46,150 bases of DNA, taken from Acidobacteriota bacterium. GTDB taxonomy: Bacteria > Acidobacteriota > Aminicenantia > Aminicenantales > Aminicenantaceae. Numbering within the stretch: position 1 is the stretch's first letter; the number at the start of each line of letters is the position of its first letter. Positions 15,162 to 22,866 of this stretch are shown here, piece after piece. The position numbers and the translations under genes were made by a program. The stretch spans positions 1 to 46,150 of the forward strand of contig JAHIPL010000132.1 in assembly GCA_018894615.1 (NCBI GenBank), given 5' to 3'. Below the pieces are notes generated by a model. The model had not been told where the DNA came from. It worked only from the letters and a program-made list of their open reading frames with translations, and ran no database searches.

Positions 15162-16262
15162 ATGATGACCTGTACATTCGATGCGGTGCTTGATCAGCAG
15201 GAAAAAGAGCGGAATTTTCGATGTGTTGTTCGTTTTGCGGAAAAAGATTATGCCGCTGAGATGAGCCGGTTTCCGCAAAAAAGGGAGGAAGGGGAACAAC
15301 CGGCCTTTTATTTTGTCCGTTCCAGCCAGCCCATTCCTCTGGTGTGGAAACATCCATTCATTTATACCAAGGAAAAGGAAAGCGGTGCCGCAGGAAAGGC
15401 AACGGTCCTTTTTCCCGGGGCGAACAGGGTGACAGGGAAAAAAGAAATGGCTCGAAGGGGCATGCTGTTTCTTCTGTCTGAAGGGGTGGAGGAGATGGTG
15501 CGCGCCGTTGTGGATGAAGCGGGGATTCAAGGGATCATCCAAGAGCGGCTCGTTGATTTTTCAGGGCTCTCCGTTCAGGATCTGACGGAGCGGAGCGTCC
15601 TGCTGGAATCCAAAGGACATCTTCGCATCCTCTCCTTTTCCCCGCTCTTTTTTCTTTCACAGACCAGTTTTGAGAATCTCTGCTCAAAGATCGTTCAGCA
15701 TCTGACCCGCTTCCACGAGGGGCATCCGACCCTGATGGGACTGAATAAAAAAAAGATCCGGCAGCGGTTTGACGTGCATCCGCGTATTTTGACCCTGGCC
15801 CTCAAGAATCTGGTCCGGGCTCAGATGATAAGGGAAGGGGATGAATATATCGCCCTTGCAGATTTCCAGATTCATCTCTCTTCATCGGATGAAAAAGTTC
15901 TGGCCCACCTCGAAGACATCTACCTTGAGGGGCATTTTCAGTCGGAGTCTCTTGAAAGTCTGCGACGCAAGCTCAACGTGGCACCCCATAAGTTGGATCA
16001 GTTGATTTCCCTTCTTATCGAAAGGGAGAGGGTGGTGCAGTCCAAAGACGGGTATATTCTTCATGCCGACTGGCTGGATGACCTGGTCGCCAAACTGAAA
16101 TCCCTGGAGAAGAGGGAGCTGACGGTTTCCGAATTTAAAGACATGACAGGCCTGACGAGGAAGTATGCCATTCCTCTTCTTGAACTGCTCGATCAGATGA
16201 ACATCACCCGCCGCAGAGGATCGGTGCGGGAAATCGTATCGGAGGGAGAACGAGGGAAATGA
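15162..16262 (+). CDS. SelB C-terminal (winged-helix, SECIS-binding) domain protein lacking the GTPase domain
   Basis: C-terminus LTVSEFKDMTGLTRKYAIPLLELLDQMNITRRRGSVR matches SelB WH4; FHEGHPTLMGL matches WH2; no P-loop in 366 aa; own RBS AGGAGA. Confidence 0.8.
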   Translation: MMTCTFDAVLDQQEKERNFRCVVRFAEKDYAAEMSRFPQKREEGEQPAFYFVRSSQPIPLVWKHPFIYTKEKESGAAGKATVLFPGANRVTGKKEMARRGMLFLLSEGVEEMVRAVVDEAGIQGIIQERLVDFSGLSVQDLTERSVLLESKGHLRILSFSPLFFLSQTSFENLCSKIVQHLTRFHEGHPTLMGLNKKKIRQRFDVHPRILTLALKNLVRAQMIREGDEYIALADFQIHLSSSDEKVLAHLEDIYLEGHFQSESLESLRRKLNVAPHKLDQLISLLIERERVVQSKDGYILHADWLDDLVAKLKSLEKRELTVSEFKDMTGLTRKYAIPLLELLDQMNITRRRGSVREIVSEGERGK

Positions 16263-17284
16263 AGGAATGGATGCCGCCCGGTGATATAAGGGTGATCCGG
16301 ACCGTGGATGCCCATACGGCCGGAGAGCCCCTTCGTATCATTGTCGAGGGAATTCCGGAAATTCCGGGATCGACCATTCTGGAGAAAAGACGTTTTGCAA
16401 AAAAAAATCTGGATTGGATCCGAACGGCATTGATGTGGGAACCGCGAGGACATGCCGACATGTATGGATGTTACCTGACGGAAGCCGAAAAACCTGATGG
16501 AACGCTGGGTGTGATCTTTCTGCACAACGATGGCTACAGCACGATGTGCGGACACGGTATCATCGCGCTGGCGACGGCACTGGTTGAAACCGGCCGGATA
16601 GAACCGGACGGCGGGACCGCTCAGATTAACTTTGACACGCCCGCCGGAAGAGTGACGGCCCGGGTTGAAAGCGTGGAGGGCCGAGCGGAGAGGGTTTCTT
16701 TCGAGAACGTGCCTTCCTTTGTCTACGCGCTGGACCGGTCATTTGATATTCCGGGCGTGGGTCGGATCCTGGTGGATGTTGCCTACGGTGGGGCTTTTTA
16801 TGTCTTCTGCAGGGCTGAGGATTTCGGTTTTCGCCTCGTGGCCGAGGAATTCAATAAACTGATCGCCGCCGGAAAAGCGGTGAAAAAGGCCGTATCTTCC
16901 GCTCTTGACATTCGGCATCCTGAAAATCCCGATCTGGGTTTTCTGTACGGGACGATTTTTATCGGGCCGCCTCACGATTCAGGGAACCATTCACGAAATG
17001 TATGTGTGTTCGCTGAGGGTGAAGTGGATCGCAGCCCGACGGGAACCGGGATCAGCGCGCGAGCGGCCATCCACCACGCCAGGGGTGAACTATCCCTTGG
17101 CTCGTATTTCTCCGTTGAAAGCATTCTGGGGACATGTTTGACTGGCCGGGCGGTCCGAACCGCACAGGTCGGTTCTTTTTCCGCAGTGGTTCCCGAAGTT
17201 TCAGGAACGGCCTATTTGACGGGCCGCCACGAATTCTTTCTTAATCCGGACGATCCTCTCCATCAAGGATTCCTGTTCCGTTGA
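16259..17284 (+). CDS. Proline racemase family, Cys/Thr type (predicted trans-3-hydroxy-L-proline dehydratase)
   Basis: DAHTAGEP, EPRGHADMYG, YSTMCGHG (catalytic Cys), DRSPTGTG (Thr in place of the second Cys); ATGA overlap with the upstream gene. Confidence 0.85.
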   Translation: MKEWMPPGDIRVIRTVDAHTAGEPLRIIVEGIPEIPGSTILEKRRFAKKNLDWIRTALMWEPRGHADMYGCYLTEAEKPDGTLGVIFLHNDGYSTMCGHGIIALATALVETGRIEPDGGTAQINFDTPAGRVTARVESVEGRAERVSFENVPSFVYALDRSFDIPGVGRILVDVAYGGAFYVFCRAEDFGFRLVAEEFNKLIAAGKAVKKAVSSALDIRHPENPDLGFLYGTIFIGPPHDSGNHSRNVCVFAEGEVDRSPTGTGISARAAIHHARGELSLGSYFSVESILGTCLTGRAVRTAQVGSFSAVVPEVSGTAYLTGRHEFFLNPDDPLHQGFLFR

Positions 17285-17373: not shown

Positions 17374-19617
17374 CTATCTTCGTCTTCTTTTTCTGGCCGC
17401 TTTTTGCTTTTCTTTTTCTTTTTTGGTTTCCACAAGAGCCGTTTTCAATTTTGCGGCGAAAAGACCGGAAGTGGGCTCTTCGTCCTTCACAAAGACCGGG
17501 TATTCTTCTTCTTGTTTCTTTTTCTCGCCCTCTTTTAGGGGCTCTTCTTTGAGAGGCTCCTCGATGACCTTGTCATCAAAAGCGGACTTGAGGGCGGAGA
17601 GGGCTTCCATCTCGGATTCTTCCAGTTCAATCTCTTCTTCCCTGATTTTTCGGACGCCTTTTCTATGCCGCCGGGCACCCCGTTCCGTTTCTGTTTTTAA
17701 AGGATGCCCCTTTTTCTTATCTTTGGCTTTCTTCGTTTTTTCATCTTTCGCTTTCTGGAGCGTCAGTTTCGCCTCCTCCGCTTCCGGCAGTTTTTTCTCT
17801 TTGGGTTCCCTTTCAGTCGGAGGGGAGACGGGTTTCGTCCGGGCCGGTTCAACCGGGGACACCGATTCGATCTTCTCTCTCACAGGAGGGACCTCCGGCT
17901 CGATGATACGAAGCTTCGGCATCTCTTCGGCCGCAGCACTTCCCGGTTCGGGGGCGATGGTGCCGATACTGGGCATCCTTTTCTTTCCCTCTTCCCCGGA
18001 GGGTGACGGGGTTTTTGCTCCGGAGGGAGAGGGTGCCGGTTTTTTCTCGATTTCAACGTCCTCTGTCACGATTTTTTCTCTGTAAAAGAAAATGCCTTTT
18101 TTCTTTTCGGATCTTTCAAATTCAGGGGAATTGAGCAGAACGGTTTCCACATCTTCCTGGTAGGTCAGCTTTAACAGGGTGAGAAGATGGTAGGCGCGCA
18201 GATAGTGCAGAAACTGATCGTCGCCTTCAAAACCGAAATTTTTATAGACATAAACCAGGAGGTCCTGCAGATCTGCTTTTTTCCGAAGGTTGTACGCGCG
18301 GAACAGTTCTTCCATGGCGTTTTTTTCCAGGAAGATGATTTTATTCGGCATGCAGTAGGAATGAACGTCCCCCTTCTCCAGGAAGAACTCATCCTTATCC
18401 TTGTTGTATCCGATTTTTGGGATTTCGATTTTTTTCTTTCCTTTTTTTATGGAAAAAGAAAAATCGGCCGGGCCGTTCCGTTTCAAGGACAGGCTTGATC
18501 CCTGCGGGACATTGTGTTTCTGGAAATAGTCCTTCAGCCCGATAAAGGAGTGGATGTTCGAGTAGTAGTAGACGGTGTAGATGTCTCCCGATCCCAAGTC
18601 CGTGAACCGGTATTCCCGAATCGCCGCCAGTTCTCTGTGGAGATGTTTGGGAATGATCACCCCTCCGGAAAAAAGTTCCCGCCATGTGAGATAAAGCTTG
18701 AGTGGAAATTTCTGCGAGGTGGAAATTTCCGGCTTGATCCCGTCCGTATAGGCAGGGACCCGAACTCTTTTGGCGGAGAGGGGAAGATCCTGGATGAGGG
18801 CATCCAGAATGCTTTTCAGATGCCAGCGGCCTTCATCCTCGGGAGAAACGAAAACAAACTGTTTTTTCAGGCTTTCGAGCGTGGCGTTGAGGCTCAGGCA
18901 TTGGAGGTGGAAAAGCGGGTCCTTAACCTTCATGGAAAACAAATCACGAACAAGGTCTTTTGTGGGAACGGACTTTTGTGAGGCGTTTATTTTTTTCTGA
19001 ACCTGGTCGATCTGCTTTGGGGAAACGGCGATTCGATTCGTGCTCAGCTGCCAGAAATTATTCCAGCTGAAAAAATCGCCGGAACCCGCCAGTGAATGCG
19101 ACAGATTTTTTCCCAGAGAGCGAAAATCCTTGTCCGTCATGGGAAGCTCATGAAGACGGGGATCCTCCTCCCGTTTGAGGGCATCGGGTTTCTCGTTTCT
19201 GGCGTCCTGATTGGACGGGATCAGAACCTGTGTTTTGCTTTTTTTCATGTAGTCGATGTGCCGGCGGAAGATTCCTCCACCCGTGTAATCGACCTCCAGC
19301 ATTTCACAACCGAAGCTTTCATAAGTGATTTTATTGATCACTTTTAATACAACAGCCCCGGAAAAATGTTCTGTTCCCTTGCTGCTCACAACCAGCGGTT
19401 CATCATAGACCCTGTAAATGAGGTCGTCCACTTCGTATAAACCACTGGGGCTGTAGACCTTGACTTCCTGATTCAGCTGTTTGGAGTTTTTTTGAAAGGC
19501 CAATTTTTGTGACAAATCAACCAGACTGAAGGGTTTTTTCTCCTCAGTCAGGACTTTTTTAATGAAGGCCAGGTCCTTGTCGGAAATATTTAAGATATTG
19601 TTTTCTTTGTTCATCAT
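17374..19617 (-). CDS. Large hypothetical protein, globular N-terminal ~520 aa plus disordered Pro/Glu/Lys-rich tail
   Basis: 747-codon ORF, ATGA overlap with the upstream OTC-like gene, low-complexity tail ending KRRRR. Confidence 0.85.
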   Translation of the reverse strand: MMNKENNILNISDKDLAFIKKVLTEEKKPFSLVDLSQKLAFQKNSKQLNQEVKVYSPSGLYEVDDLIYRVYDEPLVVSSKGTEHFSGAVVLKVINKITYESFGCEMLEVDYTGGGIFRRHIDYMKKSKTQVLIPSNQDARNEKPDALKREEDPRLHELPMTDKDFRSLGKNLSHSLAGSGDFFSWNNFWQLSTNRIAVSPKQIDQVQKKINASQKSVPTKDLVRDLFSMKVKDPLFHLQCLSLNATLESLKKQFVFVSPEDEGRWHLKSILDALIQDLPLSAKRVRVPAYTDGIKPEISTSQKFPLKLYLTWRELFSGGVIIPKHLHRELAAIREYRFTDLGSGDIYTVYYYSNIHSFIGLKDYFQKHNVPQGSSLSLKRNGPADFSFSIKKGKKKIEIPKIGYNKDKDEFFLEKGDVHSYCMPNKIIFLEKNAMEELFRAYNLRKKADLQDLLVYVYKNFGFEGDDQFLHYLRAYHLLTLLKLTYQEDVETVLLNSPEFERSEKKKGIFFYREKIVTEDVEIEKKPAPSPSGAKTPSPSGEEGKKRMPSIGTIAPEPGSAAAEEMPKLRIIEPEVPPVREKIESVSPVEPARTKPVSPPTEREPKEKKLPEAEEAKLTLQKAKDEKTKKAKDKKKGHPLKTETERGARRHRKGVRKIREEEIELEESEMEALSALKSAFDDKVIEEPLKEEPLKEGEKKKQEEEYPVFVKDEEPTSGLFAAKLKTALVETKKEKEKQKAARKRRRR

Positions 19618-20531
19618 CTTTTTGTGTCCAATAATAATAACATAATCGCTTTTTGAACATGAAGTTGATTTTTTACCTGCTCGGCGGCCAGAGAGGAGGG
19701 GCGATGTTTTATTCCTCTCTCAAAAACATCCGGATCAAGAAACGGATCGGTGTATATCCGGAGAACGTCTCTTCCGATTTCGGGAAACCGGGCTCCGCCG
19801 ACGAATGATGCTTGGGCTGTTCGGGTGGATATTTCTTTATGGTCCTCCGTTGCTGTTCCTTTTTCGCCGCTCAGATAGACGACATCGGCTGTATCTGCGG
19901 CTGCGGTCGGATCGTCACTCCATTCGATGAATGAGAGCCAATCGGGAAAGACGCCTTCCAGCCGGACAGAGCTCTTCCTCTCCTCGGGATCGGGGAGAGC
20001 GAAAATCAGTCGTGTGCCGGAATAGAGAGCAGCCAGAATCAGGTCTAAACAGAGATTGGTCCAGCTACCGATGTATCCGATGCGAAGCCCGCTTACAGAG
20101 CCTCGGGCCTCTCTGATGGTGTAGAAATCGGACAGGACACGGCAGGGATGATGATGTTCGGAGGAGGCGTTCAGCACCGGGATGGTCATGTCCTCCGCCA
20201 TCGCCAACATCCGCGAGGTGGAAAATCCGGAGAAGATCCATCCGTTCACCCACTGTCCCAGACTCCCGCTCCAGGCGTACTGTCCGGTTTGGGCCTCATC
20301 CTGGGACGGCGACCAGGGAAGATGAATGAGAGCGCCTCCGAGTTGAGCGACCGCTGCTTCCAGGAGGAGGTATTCGGGCATTGATTCTTTTTTGAACAGA
20401 TAGGCAAGCTGATGATGTTTCAGTTTGCCCCTGTAGTCCCGGGGCTTCCCTTTTACATCTTCCGCAAGATCCAGAACCTGGATGAAATCATAGGGGGACA
20501 GGTCCTGAAGGGAAAAAAGACGTGTCGGCAC
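19614..20531 (-). CDS. Ornithine carbamoyltransferase-fold protein with degenerate active site (probable pseudoenzyme)
   Basis: OTC-like framework (LFSLQDLS, AAVAQLGG, PVLNA..HPC..LSDFYTI, NQLHVQKAIM) but STRT, SMG, HCLP and catalytic Arg residues are absent; GTG start 2 nt after the arcC stop. Confidence 0.8.
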   Translation of the reverse strand: MPTRLFSLQDLSPYDFIQVLDLAEDVKGKPRDYRGKLKHHQLAYLFKKESMPEYLLLEAAVAQLGGALIHLPWSPSQDEAQTGQYAWSGSLGQWVNGWIFSGFSTSRMLAMAEDMTIPVLNASSEHHHPCRVLSDFYTIREARGSVSGLRIGYIGSWTNLCLDLILAALYSGTRLIFALPDPEERKSSVRLEGVFPDWLSFIEWSDDPTAAADTADVVYLSGEKGTATEDHKEISTRTAQASFVGGARFPEIGRDVLRIYTDPFLDPDVFERGIKHRPSSLAAEQVKNQLHVQKAIMLLLLDTKR

Positions 20532-20533
20532 TC

Positions 20534-21490
20534 TCAGTTCCTCGACTCTCCGACAATTTTTGTTCCAGATCGATTGAGAAGGGCCGCCTTGAGATGACTG
20601 GCCGAGGTGATCAGCACTTCGTTCCCGCCGGATTCGATGTACTCGATCGCCGCCTTGACTTTGGGGCCCATAGATCCGGGAGGAAAATGCCCGTCGTCAA
20701 GATGTTTTCGGGCTTCACCGACGGTCATTCGGCTGAGAGGTTTTTCATCCGGAGTTCCGAAGTTGAGGCAGATTTTCGGGACATTCGTCAGAATGATGAA
20801 AAGATCACAACCCACCTCATGGGCGATCAGGCCGGAAGCGAAATCCTTGTCGATCACCGCCTCCACTCCCTGGAAAAGGCCGTTGCCGTTGATGATGACC
20901 GGAATTCCGCCGCCGCCGGCCGCGATCACGATTTTTCCCGAATAGACGAGGGTGTGAATGATTCGTTTGGGGATGACATCGATGGGCCTGGGCGAGGGAA
21001 CCACCTTGCGGTAGCCGCGCCCTGCGTCTTCGACCATGATCCACTTTTTTTCTTTCATCAGCATCAGGGCTCTGTATTTGGAGTAAAAAGGGCCGATGGG
21101 TTTCGTCGGATTTTCAAAGGCGGGATCATCCTTATCGACGACGATCTGAGTCATCAGAGTGGCGACATCCTTGTCGATAGAGTTCTTCCGCAGTTCATTG
21201 AGAAGGGCTTTTTCCAGCATGTACCCCATGCTGCCCTCGGTCATGGCATCACAGATGTCCAGAGAGAAAGGAGGAATTTTATTGATCGTTTCCTCCATCT
21301 GGATAAGAAGGTTGCCGACCTGAGGCCCGTTGCCGTGAACGATGATCAGATCAAATCCCTTTTTGACGATGTGGATCATCAGCTGGGCCGCCTTCTGGGC
21401 GTTTCTCATCTGCTCGTCCTGCAGCCCTCTCTGCTCCTTTGGAAGGATGGCGTTTCCGCCGAAGGCGATCAGCGCGGTTTTCTGTCTCAT
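20534..21490 (-). CDS. arcC: Carbamate kinase
   Basis: AFGGNAI, VHGNGPQVG, GRGYRKVVPSP, AGGGGIPV, AVIDKD, GSMGPKV. Confidence 0.96.
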   Translation of the reverse strand: MRQKTALIAFGGNAILPKEQRGLQDEQMRNAQKAAQLMIHIVKKGFDLIIVHGNGPQVGNLLIQMEETINKIPPFSLDICDAMTEGSMGYMLEKALLNELRKNSIDKDVATLMTQIVVDKDDPAFENPTKPIGPFYSKYRALMLMKEKKWIMVEDAGRGYRKVVPSPRPIDVIPKRIIHTLVYSGKIVIAAGGGGIPVIINGNGLFQGVEAVIDKDFASGLIAHEVGCDLFIILTNVPKICLNFGTPDEKPLSRMTVGEARKHLDDGHFPPGSMGPKVKAAIEYIESGGNEVLITSASHLKAALLNRSGTKIVGESRN

Positions 21491-22794
21491 TTGAAACGCT
21501 GGAGGACCTCGTTGAGATCGGGCTTCCCGATTTCTTCCAGATCGTACGTGACGCGCAGGATTTTTTTGTTTGTCTGAATGAGGCGGCCGAGATCGATGGG
21601 TGTGGCGCCGATGACGAGATCACAATCCGTATTGTTGATGGTCTCGGTGAGTTCATCGATCTGATGCTGTCCATACCCCATGGCCGGAAGGACGCGATCG
21701 AGATGGCTGTACTTGGCGAAGGTGTCTTTGATACTGCCGACGGCGTAGGGCCTCGGATCGATGATTTTACCCGCACCATACTGTTCGGCGGCGATGATGC
21801 CGGCGCCGTAGGGCATTTCACCGTGGGTCAGGGTCGGCCCGTCTTCAATGACCAGGACGGATTTTCCCCGGATTTTTTCTCCGTCCGGAACGGTTATCGG
21901 AGAATTGGCCTTGATGACAACGGCTTCGGGATTGCAGATTTTTATATTGTTTTCAACCACTTCAATGTTTTTCTGTTTTGCGGTGGCCATCTTGTTGATG
22001 ATGATCACTTGAGCCCGCCTGAAGTTGGTTTCACCCGGATGATAGAGCCGTTCATGACCGGGCCGGTGTGGATCGACCACGACGATTTCGATATCCGCCT
22101 TGTAAAAGGGGATGTCGTTGTTTCCACCGTCCCAGAGGATGATGTCGGCTTCCTTTTCCGCTTCGGCAAGGATGTCTCCGTAATCAACTCCGGCGTAGAC
22201 AATGATGCCGTTCTGAATGTGGTGTTCGTATTCCTCCATTTCCTCGATTGTGCATTTATGCTTCATCATGTCGTCATAGGTCGCAAATCTCTGGACCCGC
22301 TGTTTGGCAAGGTCTCCGTAAGGCATGGGGTGGCGAATGACGACGACTTTTTTACCCTGTTCTTTGAGAAGCAGAGCAATTTTTCGTGTGGTCTGGCTTT
22401 TCCCGCAGCCCGTCCTGACCGCGCACACCGAAACCAGAGGACGTTTGCTGGGAATCATGGTATCGTTAGGGCCCAGAAAAACAAAACCGGCTCCGGCCGC
22501 CAGAACGATGGAGGCCTTGTGCATCACATTCTCATGAAAAATGTCACTGTAGGAGAACACAACCTCATCCACGCCCAGCTCTTTGATCAGCCGCGGGAGG
22601 CCTTCCTCCTTGTAGATGGGGATTCCATCGGGATAGAGGGGGCCGGCCAGAACGGAGGGGTATTTCCTTCCGTCGATATCCGGTATCTGAGTGGCGGTAA
22701 AGGCCAGAACCTGAAAATCTTTATTGTTTCGATAAAAGACGTTAAAATTATGAAAGTCTCTTCCGGCTGCGCCCATGATAAGGACTTTTCTCAT
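21487..22794 (-). CDS. arcE: COG2403 P-loop protein (often annotated cyclic 2,3-DPG synthetase-like); probable arginine synthetase
   Basis: GAAGRDFHNFN, TATQIP, AVRTGCGKSQT P-loop, RHPMPYG, WDGGNND, EDGPTLTHG; directly upstream of arcC and an OTC homologue; start ATG 22794 after AAGGAG. Confidence 0.8.
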   Translation of the reverse strand: MRKVLIMGAAGRDFHNFNVFYRNNKDFQVLAFTATQIPDIDGRKYPSVLAGPLYPDGIPIYKEEGLPRLIKELGVDEVVFSYSDIFHENVMHKASIVLAAGAGFVFLGPNDTMIPSKRPLVSVCAVRTGCGKSQTTRKIALLLKEQGKKVVVIRHPMPYGDLAKQRVQRFATYDDMMKHKCTIEEMEEYEHHIQNGIIVYAGVDYGDILAEAEKEADIILWDGGNNDIPFYKADIEIVVVDPHRPGHERLYHPGETNFRRAQVIIINKMATAKQKNIEVVENNIKICNPEAVVIKANSPITVPDGEKIRGKSVLVIEDGPTLTHGEMPYGAGIIAAEQYGAGKIIDPRPYAVGSIKDTFAKYSHLDRVLPAMGYGQHQIDELTETINNTDCDLVIGATPIDLGRLIQTNKKILRVTYDLEEIGKPDLNEVLQRFK

Positions 22795-22837: not shown

Positions 22838-22866
22838 AGTATAATACAGGGCTTGGAAATATGCAA
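22838..22866 (-). promoter_or_regulatory. Sigma70-type promoter for the arcE operon
   Basis: Minus strand TTGCAT-17 bp-TATACT. Confidence 0.6.

What the first reader, a model, noticed from the sequence alone, without database searches (positions are those of the whole stretch)
19614..20531. Full-length but catalytically stripped ornithine carbamoyltransferase
Seen: an intact 305-codon frame alignable to OTC from end to end, yet every active-site motif is altered. STRT reads SMPE, the Arg of the 'IRT' strand is gone (IFSGF), HPxQ reads HPCR, DxWxSMG reads YLSGEKG, HCLP is absent and ENR reads KNQ. Known: these residues bind carbamoyl phosphate and ornithine in all active OTCs. Inference: selective loss of catalytic residues with no stops or frameshifts suggests a retained pseudoenzyme. 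It could be a scaffold channelling carbamoyl phosphate between ArcE and ArcC, a regulatory subunit forming mixed trimers with a true OTC encoded elsewhere, or a ligand sensor for the downstream 747-aa protein.
Basis: partly seen in the sequence, partly recalled or inferred. Interest (0 to 1): 0.82.

Follow-up and report, generated by a model that had tools for sequence, protein, structure and literature searches.

The report
Dead ornithine carbamoyltransferase kept in arc operon
This gene is a full-length copy of ornithine carbamoyltransferase that has lost its substrate-binding residues; an Aminicenantes lineage still keeps it under weakened selection after a second, intact copy of the enzyme elsewhere in the genome made it redundant.

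Summary
A 305-codon ORF (19614-20531, on the minus strand, not the plus strand) has the OTC fold but lacks all three motifs that define transcarbamylases (SxRT, HPxQ, HxLP) and the ornithine-site motifs.

It is the orthologue of the OTC gene in an operon conserved across Candidatus Aminicenantes: arcE-like, carbamate kinase, OTC, 747-aa protein. Most relatives carry an intact OTC in this slot. Those intact copies are 64-73% identical to a reference intact copy. The window copy is only 27-33% identical to relatives' slot OTCs, although its neighbour genes are 68-81% identical.

Motif-stripped full-length copies occur in about 8 genera. Every genome that has one also has a second, intact 333-aa OTC ("OTC2"; in this genome on contig C26).

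This is not simple decay:
- dN/dS is 0.36 (95% CI 0.24-0.50), against 0.06-0.08 for neighbour genes.
- Eleven full-length sequence variants, across two species, are all open.
- A neutral sequence would stay open with P of about 7e-8.
- The predicted fold is still that of OTC.

The gene is nevertheless dispensable. The sister genus and two other genomes have deleted it.

Best reading: a displaced, catalytically dead orthologue kept as a folded protein. A residual structural role is inferred, not shown.

The parts
19614..20531 (-). Catalytically stripped OTC orthologue (305 aa, GTG start). It is the third gene of the operon.
   Evidence: AF2 model pLDDT 79, pTM 0.83. Foldseek to solved OTCs gives TM 0.75-0.82.
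20370..20384 (-). SMPEY, in place of the phosphate-binding S-x-R-T-R motif.
   Evidence: A1 and A4; coordinates.
20223..20237 (-). IFSGF, in place of M-I-R-T-F. The carbamoyl-phosphate-binding Arg is replaced by Ser101.
   Evidence: A4.
20139..20150 (-). HPCR, in place of HPxQ.
   Evidence: A1 and A4.
20055..20069 (-). GSWTN, in place of D-G-N-N.
   Evidence: A4.
19788..19877 (-). YLSGEKGT plus a degenerate 240s loop, in place of the DxWxSMG ornithine-binding loop. The model has low confidence here, and amino-acid polymorphisms occur here.
   Evidence: A4; pLDDT below 50 for residues 224-248; variants at residues 227 and 241.
19743..19754 (-). YTDP, in place of HCLP (HxLP).
   Evidence: A4.
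19665..19673 (-). KNQ, in place of ENR, at the start of the otherwise well-conserved C-terminal helix.
   Evidence: A4.
20534..21490 (-). Carbamate kinase (arcC), the second gene of the operon.
   Evidence: TIGR00746 scores 382 bits against a cut-off of 358. It is 72-81% identical to relatives.
21487..22794 (-). ArcE-like P-loop protein of 435 aa, starting at MRKVLIMGAAG. The longest ORF would start at 22866. It is the first gene of the operon.
   Evidence: Weak match to cyclic 2,3-diphosphoglycerate synthetase, PDB 9sxb. Database copies are 435 aa and named GTPase or cDPG synthase. Family described in PMC11032458.
17374..19617 (-). 747-aa protein, the last gene of the operon. It has a 520-aa globular part and a K/E/P-rich tail. 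Its start overlaps the dead OTC's stop as ATGA.
   Evidence: AF2 model pLDDT 85. B3-like DNA-binding pseudobarrel matches. Conserved across Aminicenantes.

Best explanation
The ORF is the orthologue of the OTC (arcB/argF) gene in an operon conserved across Candidatus Aminicenantes: arcE-like, arcC, OTC, 747-aa protein.

In most relatives this slot holds a normal OTC, and in most of them it is the only OTC found. Some lineages of the family also carry a second, E. coli-type OTC of 333 aa (called OTC2 here; in this genome on contig C26). In part of those lineages the slot copy has lost catalytic constraint. The carbamoyl-phosphate and ornithine binding residues eroded, differently in each genus, while the two-domain fold was kept.

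The window protein is therefore very probably unable to bind carbamoyl phosphate or ornithine. OTC2 must supply OTC activity. The genome has no argininosuccinate synthetase and no arginine deiminase, so the arcE-like enzyme is the only candidate found for converting between arginine and citrulline.

The dead copy is still made as a folded protein under weakened but clear purifying selection, about five times more relaxed than its neighbour genes. The most likely reason (inferred, not shown) is a residual non-catalytic structural role, for example as a trimeric partner of the co-translated carbamate kinase. A weak carbamate kinase-OTC association is known in Pyrococcus. That role is dispensable, because the sister genus and two other genomes have deleted the gene.

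Shown: orthology, motif loss, presence of OTC2, selection, fold, deletions in relatives. Inferred: catalytic death, and the nature of the retained role.
For: Synteny. The arrangement thrS | arcE-like, CK, OTC, p747 | selB-like is seen in 13 relatives from 6 families of the order and in about 60 more family members.

Relatives' slot OTCs are intact in every motif. They score about 430 bits on NF001986 against a cut-off of 306; the window copy scores 120.

Identity to relatives: OTC 27-33%, ArcE 58-77%, CK 71-81%. Intact slot OTCs are 64-73% identical to a reference intact copy.

Fully motif-stripped, full-length (292-314 aa) copies occur in 7 genera and a partly stripped copy in an eighth.

OTC2 (NF003286 580 bits, cut-off 515):
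- Present in all 19 sampled rows with a degenerate or partial slot OTC.
- Present in 5 of 51 sampled rows with an intact slot OTC.
- No genome found to lack OTC2 has a degenerate slot copy.

Selection:
- NG86 omega is 0.36 (CI 0.24-0.50) for the dead OTC, against ArcE 0.07, CK 0.06, ThrRS 0.075.
- ML omega is 0.20-0.30 in degenerate genera and 0.09-0.15 in intact genera.
- Former active-site segments have omega 0.31-0.57 and the rest 0.20-0.29. In three of the four intact pairs tested both are 0.05-0.15.
- Conservation is inverted: the SxRT loop falls from 0.93 to 0.14 and HxLP from 0.89 to 0.22, while the C-terminal helix goes from 0.73 to 0.53.

The ORF is open in 11 full-length sequence variants of two species. 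P(no stop under neutrality at dS 0.46) is 7e-8.

Fold: pTM 0.83; only the 80s and 240s loops have low confidence; top structural matches are all OTCs.

Genome content: only this ORF, OTC2 and pyrB carry the OTCase fold. There is no argG and no ADI, and carB is present.

[quoted passage not shown] Weak CK-OTC association in Pyrococcus (PMC6245113).
Against:
- No interaction was tested. Only monomers could be modelled.
- The gene is deleted in the sister genus g17, where only a remnant of 27-29 codons remains. It is also deleted in G071 and G075 of genus g46, which also contains full-length degenerate copies. Any role is therefore non-essential.
- omega below 1 could come from selection against misfolding of an expressed protein, and from selection for operon translation, without a specific function.
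- The link to OTC2 rests on only 1-4 independent origins. Just 2 independent pairs are supported, and a single origin is not rejected (AU p = 0.155). It is therefore a consistent pattern, not a statistical proof.
- The genome is a 91% complete MAG in 371 contigs.
Confidence: 0.62

Rival explanations
1. A functionless relic in slow decay. After OTC2 took over, the slot gene lost all function. Its frame is kept only indirectly. Nonsense or frameshift mutations would reduce translation of the downstream, ATGA-coupled 747-aa gene. Missense changes that cause misfolding of an expressed protein would also be selected against. Deletion is the end point.
For: - The gene is deleted in sister genus g17, and in G071 and G075. 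In g17 the remnant keeps the last 27-29 OTC codons just upstream of p747, where p747's ribosome-binding region would lie.
- Tight coupling on both sides.
- Replacement residues at the former active site differ between genera, so there is no shared new motif.
- omega is raised over the whole protein.
Against: - omega is 0.20-0.29 outside the former active site in four independent genera. Even the former site segments stay at 0.31-0.57 and not 1.
- Full-length copies persist across genera with synonymous divergence above 1.
- Lengths stay within 292-314 aa with few indels, and a confident OTC fold is kept.
- Clean deletions show that the operon tolerates removal of the gene, so coupling alone does not force it to be kept.
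Confidence: 0.25
2. A neofunctionalised protein. The OTC fold has been re-used as a ligand sensor or regulatory partner, for example for the DNA-binding-like 747-aa protein, or as an enzyme with a new substrate.
For: - Purifying selection persists.
- Within a genus the replaced residues are fairly stable; g50 has 0.54-0.83 identity in the former site segments.
- The downstream protein has B3-like and winged-helix DNA-binding folds, so a sensor-regulator pair is conceivable.
Against: - There is no common new motif across degenerate genera. SxRT-loop identity between genera is 0.14.
- The cleft loops are the least confident parts of the model and the most polymorphic.
- p747 is conserved in genomes that have lost the OTC (g17, G071, G075) or all arc genes (G066).
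- No excess of nonsynonymous change was seen in any segment or pair tested.
Confidence: 0.09
3. A regulatory subunit that forms mixed trimers with the true OTC (OTC2) and modulates its activity.
For: A true OTC is present in every genome that has a degenerate copy. The structural helices of the carbamoyl-phosphate-binding domain are the best-kept parts.
Against: - OTC2 belongs to a different OTC subfamily (NF003286 versus NF001986).
- OTC2 is only 27% identical to the window protein, and only over residues 6-171.
- OTC2 is about 40% identical even to intact slot OTCs.
- The two genes are unlinked, on contigs C26 and C52.
Confidence: 0.03
4. The protein is still an active carbamoyltransferase with an unconventional active site.
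For: Full-length fold. Ser50, His128, Pro129 and Cys130 are kept.
Against: All three superfamily-defining motifs are broken. Every Arg that binds carbamoyl phosphate is gone: the SxRT Arg, the MIRTF Arg and the ENR Arg (PMC4581275). The replacement residues are not conserved between genera.
Confidence: 0.01

Closest known systems
Ornithine carbamoyltransferase (ArgF/ArcB; NCBIfam NF001986/TIGR00658 type, about 305 aa)
   Same: Two-domain OTCase fold, same length, and the N- and C-terminal helices. It sits in the genomic slot of the intact OTC in relatives' arcE-arcC-OTC operon.
   Different: SxRT, HPxQ, HxLP, DGNN and DxWxSMG are all lost. It scores 120 bits against a cut-off of 306. It is 27-33% identical to its own orthologues, which are 64-73% identical to a reference intact copy.
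Inactive dihydroorotase (PyrC') of Pseudomonas ATCase holoenzymes, and the inactive DHOase domain of fungal CAD-like proteins
   Same: A catalytically dead homologue of a carbamoyl-phosphate-pathway enzyme, kept as a structural piece beside active enzymes (PMC4581275). This is the kind of role inferred here.
   Different: Those are a different fold and are required for assembly of the holoenzyme. Here no complex has been shown, and the dead protein is dispensable in sister lineages.
Arginine synthetase pathway (ArcE + OTC + carbamate kinase; Michimori et al. 2024, PMC11032458)
   Same: An arcE-like gene clustered with arcC and an OTC gene. ADI and argininosuccinate synthetase are absent.
   Different: In this genome the clustered OTC is dead, and the pathway's OTC step must be supplied by an unlinked gene. 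ArcE identity was not tested directly against TK2200.
Carbamate kinase-OTC channelling complex of Pyrococcus furiosus (Massant et al. 2002, as cited in PMC6245113)
   Same: It gives a precedent for physical association between the products of the two adjacent genes.
   Different: In Pyrococcus both partners are active and the association serves carbamoyl phosphate transfer. A dead OTC cannot accept or produce carbamoyl phosphate.

Membership tests
Transcarbamylase superfamily / OTC (EC 2.1.3.3) | Two-domain OTCase/ATCase fold (PF02729 + PF00185) | tested here: met
   PF02729 scores 69 bits (cut-off 29.9) and PF00185 scores 34 bits (cut-off 29.4). Foldseek gives TM 0.75-0.82 to solved OTCs.
Transcarbamylase superfamily / OTC (EC 2.1.3.3) | SxRT phosphate-binding motif | tested here: not met
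   Reads SMPE(Y) at residues 50-54. The motif definition is from PMC4581275.
Transcarbamylase superfamily / OTC (EC 2.1.3.3) | HPxQ carbamoyl-binding motif | tested here: not met
   Reads HPCR at residues 128-131.
Transcarbamylase superfamily / OTC (EC 2.1.3.3) | HxLP motif | tested here: not met
   Reads YTDP at residues 260-263.
Transcarbamylase superfamily / OTC (EC 2.1.3.3) | Ornithine-site motifs DGNN and DxWxSMG | tested here: not met
   They read GSWTN and LSGEKGT. The 240s loop has pLDDT below 50.
Transcarbamylase superfamily / OTC (EC 2.1.3.3) | Curated family score (NCBIfam NF001986 / TIGR00658) | tested here: not met
   120.5 bits against 306, and 111.8 bits against 280.85. Intact orthologues score about 430 bits.
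Transcarbamylase superfamily / OTC (EC 2.1.3.3) | Carbamoyltransferase activity | not testable with these tools
   This needs an enzyme assay.
Pseudoenzyme (dead homologue kept by selection) | Descent from an active enzyme, with loss of catalytic or binding residues | tested here: met
   Syntenic orthologues are intact. The motifs are lost in the window copy.
Pseudoenzyme (dead homologue kept by selection) | Open frame kept across populations and species | tested here: met
   Eleven full-length sequence variants of two species are all open. Twenty-one degenerate copies from 7 genera are all open. Neutral expectation: P = 7e-8.
Pseudoenzyme (dead homologue kept by selection) | Purifying selection on the protein (omega clearly below 1) | tested here: met
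   omega is 0.36, CI 0.24-0.50. ML omega is 0.20-0.30 in other degenerate genera.
Pseudoenzyme (dead homologue kept by selection) | Expression, and a demonstrated non-catalytic function | not testable with these tools
No multimer modelling or experiment was available.
Decaying pseudogene | Stops, frameshifts or omega near 1 | tested here: not met
   No stops or frameshifts. The CI of omega excludes 1.
Decaying pseudogene | Loss of the gene in close relatives | tested here: met
   The gene is deleted in g17 (G016, G055), G071 and G075. g17 is sister to the window genus with 99/98 support.
Arginine synthetase (ArcE) pathway gene cluster | Carbamate kinase gene | tested here: met
   TIGR00746 scores 382 bits against a cut-off of 358.
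Arginine synthetase (ArcE) pathway gene cluster | ArcE (TK2200-type) homologue | tested here: inconclusive
   cDPG-synthetase-like P-loop protein (PDB 9sxb, E = 5e-4). Database copies are named GTPase or cDPG synthase, as the paper describes for ArcE homologues. There was no direct comparison with TK2200 and no library model.
Arginine synthetase (ArcE) pathway gene cluster | Functional OTC in the cluster | tested here: not met
   The clustered copy has lost all motifs. An intact OTC is unlinked, on contig C26.

The most novel reading that the evidence does not exclude
The dead OTC is a true non-catalytic subunit. As a trimeric scaffold it would organise or stabilise the co-translated carbamate kinase, and possibly the ArcE-like arginine synthetase, in an arginine-fermentation enzyme complex. 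Degenerate copies in several Aminicenantes genera would then be a natural series showing an enzyme turning into a scaffold. It would be the first described pseudoenzyme of the transcarbamylase superfamily.
Probability: 0.2. Interest if true: 0.7.

Novelty: new variant of a known kind. Interest (0 to 1): 0.45.

Why it matters
All known transcarbamylases keep the SxRT, HPxQ and HxLP motifs (PMC4581275). This clade of OTC-fold proteins has lost all three and is still under purifying selection in more than 20 uncultured species.

The family offers every stage of enzyme displacement in one conserved operon slot:
- intact, with no second OTC;
- intact, with OTC2;
- partly eroded;
- fully stripped;
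- internally deleted;
- gone.

That makes it a useful natural series for studying how an enzyme gene dies or is re-used after it becomes redundant.

Practically, annotation pipelines either label some of these proteins "ornithine carbamoyltransferase" or call them hypothetical. Metabolic reconstructions of Aminicenantes arginine catabolism through the recently described arginine synthetase pathway should not count this gene as the OTC step.

Tried and rejected
- Plus-strand reading of the coordinates: full of stops. The gene is on the minus strand.
- Word-based homologue search: only one close relative and ordinary OTCs. The exhaustive search was needed to see other degenerate copies.
- Hidden third OTC-type gene in the genome: only OTC2 and pyrB were found.
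- Single versus multiple origins of degeneration. The quick tree gave one clade. The careful tree needs up to 4 changes, and well-supported branches force at least 2. The AU test does not reject one clade, p = 0.155. Left unresolved.
- Independent-contrast test of degeneration against OTC2: only 2 supported pairs, which is too few for significance.
- Sequence search of the 747-aa protein against PDB, Pfam and NCBIfam: nothing. Only the fold search gave domain-level B3-like matches, with E around 2e-3.
- NCBIfam and Pfam have no ArcE model. Direct comparison with TK2200 was not possible.
- Literature search for an OTC or transcarbamylase pseudoenzyme: nothing relevant. Search for Aminicenantes arginine catabolism: nothing relevant.
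- One malformed family-search call and one malformed literature query were repeated correctly.
Full report
**What is there.** The coordinates 19614-20531 hold a 305-codon ORF on the minus strand. The plus-strand reading is full of stops.
- The ORF starts with GTG, 2 nt after the stop of the upstream gene.
- A GAGGAA Shine-Dalgarno sequence lies 9 nt upstream.
- Its TGA stop overlaps the ATG of the next gene as ATGA.
- Both OTCase Pfam domains match over their cut-offs (PF02729 69 bits, PF00185 34 bits).
- The best curated OTC model gives only 120.5 bits against a cut-off of 306.
- The closest solved structures by sequence are anabolic-type OTCs, for example M. tuberculosis ArgF at E = 7e-27.

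| Canonical motif | Window protein | Residues |
|---|---|---|
| S[T/L]RTR | SMPEY | 50-54 |
| M-I-R-T-F (Arg) | IFSGF (Ser101) | 99-103 |
| HPxQ | HPCR | 128-131 |
| DGNN | GSWTN | 155-159 |
| YTDxWxSMG | YLSGEKGT | 219-226 |
| HCLP | YTDP | 260-263 |
| ENR | KNQ | 287-289 |

[quoted passage not shown] All three are broken here.

**The operon.** Four translationally coupled genes lie on the minus strand.
1. A 435-aa P-loop protein (21487-22794).
   - It weakly resembles cyclic 2,3-diphosphoglycerate synthetase (PDB 9sxb).
   - Databases name it GTPase or cDPG synthase.
   - This fits the description of ArcE (arginine synthetase) homologues, which cluster with arcB and arcC (PMC11032458).
   - I could not compare it directly with TK2200.
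2. Carbamate kinase (TIGR00746, 382 bits against a cut-off of 358).
3. The OTC-like ORF.
4. A 747-aa protein with no family or PDB sequence match.

**Relatives.** Record titles place the relatives in Candidatus Aminicenantes.
- The arrangement thrS | arcE-like, CK, OTC, 747-aa | selB-like is conserved in 13 relatives from 6 families of the order and in about 60 more genomes of the window's family.
- In most of them the OTC at this slot has every motif.
- Those intact copies score about 430 bits on NF001986 and are 64-73% identical to a reference intact copy.
- The window copy is only 27-33% identical to relatives' slot OTCs.
- Its neighbours are far better conserved: ArcE-like 58-77%, CK 71-81%, 747-aa protein 42-56%.

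The window gene is therefore a highly accelerated orthologue, not a foreign gene.

**A family-wide pattern.** Of the 96 species genomes of the family, I sampled the slot in about 75.
- Full-length (292-314 aa) ORFs with all motifs lost occur in 7 genera: g1 (the window), g3, g7, g15, g42, g46 and g50. In g50 all 9 species have one.
- A partly eroded copy occurs in g40. It keeps SLRTR, HPCQ and ENR but has lost DGNN, SMG and HCLP.
- The residues that replace the motifs differ from genus to genus.
- On an ArcE+CK tree the non-intact states need between one and four changes. The quick tree gave one clade. The careful tree gave four changes, at least two of them forced by well-supported branches. 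The AU test does not reject a single clade, p = 0.155.

**A second OTC.** The window genome has three OTCase-fold genes: this ORF, pyrB next to pyrC and pyrR, and a 333-aa OTC with all motifs on contig C26. The last one is called OTC2 here and scores 580 bits on NF003286 against a cut-off of 515.

| Slot OTC state (sampled rows) | OTC2 present | OTC2 not found |
|---|---|---|
| Degenerate or partial | 19 | 0 |
| Intact | 5 | 46 |
| Deleted | 2 | 1 |

- The one deleted row without OTC2 is an 83% complete genome.
- This fits displacement: once OTC2 is present, the slot copy can lose catalysis.
- With only 1-4 independent origins the association cannot be shown statistically.
- In genus g21, species that have OTC2 still have motif-intact slot copies. 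One pair already shows raised omega in the active-site segments (0.31 against 0.12 elsewhere), and one copy has SMG changed to SMD. This may be the same process starting again.

**Not simple decay.**
- Against a sister species (loci L004 and L175), omega is 0.36 (bootstrap CI 0.24-0.50) for the dead OTC. It is 0.07 for ArcE, 0.06 for CK, 0.075 for ThrRS and 0.13 for the 747-aa N-terminus. All are at dS of about 0.4-0.6.
- ML omega (GY+F3X4) is 0.20, 0.30 and 0.25 in the degenerate genera g50, g7 and g15. It is 0.09-0.15 in five intact genera.
- All 11 full-length sequence variants found (8 of the window species, 3 of the sister species) are open.
- About 3.9% of random substitutions in this gene give a stop. 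A neutral sequence at dS 0.46 would therefore stay open with P of about 7e-8.
- Amino-acid polymorphisms within the species include a cluster at residues 77-82 and changes at 227 and 241. These lie in the two segments that the AlphaFold model predicts with low confidence (71-90 and 224-248). The rest of the model is confident, with pLDDT 79 and pTM 0.83.
- The model superposes on solved OTCs with TM 0.75-0.82.
- Conservation has been inverted. Among intact genera the SxRT loop (0.93) and HxLP region (0.89) are the most conserved parts. Among degenerate genera they are among the least (0.14 and 0.22). The best-kept parts there are helix H6 (0.56), the C-terminal helix (0.53) and the helix after HPxQ (0.48).
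- Former active-site segments now have omega 0.31-0.57 and the remainder 0.20-0.29. In three of the four intact pairs tested both are 0.05-0.15.

Constraint on catalysis is gone. Constraint on the fold remains, at roughly half strength.

**But dispensable.**
- In genus g17 the slot OTC is reduced to a remnant of its last 27-29 codons in front of the 747-aa gene. g17 is sister to the window's genus with 99/98 support.
- In genus g46, which also has full-length degenerate copies, G071 keeps only about 60 N-terminal and 17 C-terminal codons, and G075 has none.
- G066 lacks the arcE-like gene, CK and OTC between thrS and the 747-aa gene, but keeps the 747-aa gene.

Whatever the dead protein does, lineages can lose it.

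**Metabolic setting.** The genome (91% complete) shows no argininosuccinate synthetase and no arginine deiminase, and it has carB. The arcE-like enzyme is then the only candidate found for arginine-citrulline conversion, and OTC2 must carry out the OTC step.

- A scaffold passing carbamoyl phosphate between ArcE and ArcC does not fit the pathway, because OTC, not ArcE, makes carbamoyl phosphate (PMC11032458). A structural association with carbamate kinase is still plausible. A weak CK-OTC association is known in Pyrococcus (PMC6245113). This is my preferred, inferred role.
- Mixed trimers with OTC2 are unlikely. The two proteins belong to different subfamilies and share about 27% identity over only half the length.
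- A sensor for the 747-aa protein is weakened because that protein persists without the OTC. Its model shows B3-like DNA-binding pseudobarrel and winged-helix folds, so this reading is not excluded.

**Verdict.**
- The interpretation "retained pseudoenzyme" is partly supported.
- The best reading is a displaced, catalytically dead orthologue kept as a folded protein under relaxed purifying selection. It sits on a path that ends in deletion in some lineages.
- I found no description of a transcarbamylase pseudoenzyme in the literature searched. I rate it a new variant of a known kind, of moderate interest.

Noticed in passing
window 17374-19617 (-); homologues in L015-L027 and L089-L168: The 747-aa last gene of the operon is conserved across Aminicenantes, with 206 relatives among GTDB species genomes. 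Its 520-aa N-terminal part models confidently (pLDDT 85) and contains a B3-like DNA-binding pseudobarrel and winged-helix folds, followed by a K/E/P-rich tail. It persists in genomes that have lost the OTC or all the arc genes.
   Followed up: partly
window 15162-16262 (+): A SelB C-terminal (winged-helix, PF09107/PF09106) protein without a GTPase domain. It is syntenic next to the operon in every relative examined (30-50% identity). It is the subject of another note of this scan.
   Followed up: no
L071, L081, L085 (genus g51: G106, G108, G105): No arcE-like match was found upstream of the carbamate kinase gene in these loci. In L071 no arcE-sized ORF lies there. The cluster appears to be CK, intact OTC, 747-aa gene only. 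Most g51 species also carry OTC2.
   Followed up: partly
L046 (G046:C89:10997-11899): A third kind of OTC-like paralogue (313 aa). It has STRTR, HPCQ and HCLP, but DIWN instead of DGNN and NTWHSMG instead of DVWxSMG. It may be a transcarbamylase with another second substrate.
   Followed up: no
window 16259-17284 (+); L024 11824-12200: A proline racemase / trans-3-hydroxy-L-proline dehydratase family gene lies between the selB-like gene and the 747-aa gene in the window and in some relatives (L017, L026). In L024 only broken fragments of it remain.
   Followed up: no
G000 whole genome: No argininosuccinate synthetase (PF00764) and no arginine deiminase (PF02274) were found; carB is present. 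Arginine-citrulline conversion appears to rest on the arcE-like gene alone. The genome is 91% complete.
   Followed up: partly
L083 (G060) and L061 (G057), genus g21: These slot OTCs are motif-intact and sit in genomes that also carry OTC2. The pair shows raised omega in the active-site segments (0.31 against 0.12 elsewhere), and the L083 copy has SMG changed to SMD. This may be an early stage of the same erosion.
   Followed up: partly
public records of the window protein's cluster: NCBI names these proteins 'hypothetical protein', while one JGI record of the sister species calls it 'ornithine carbamoyltransferase'. Annotation of this clade is inconsistent.
   Followed up: no
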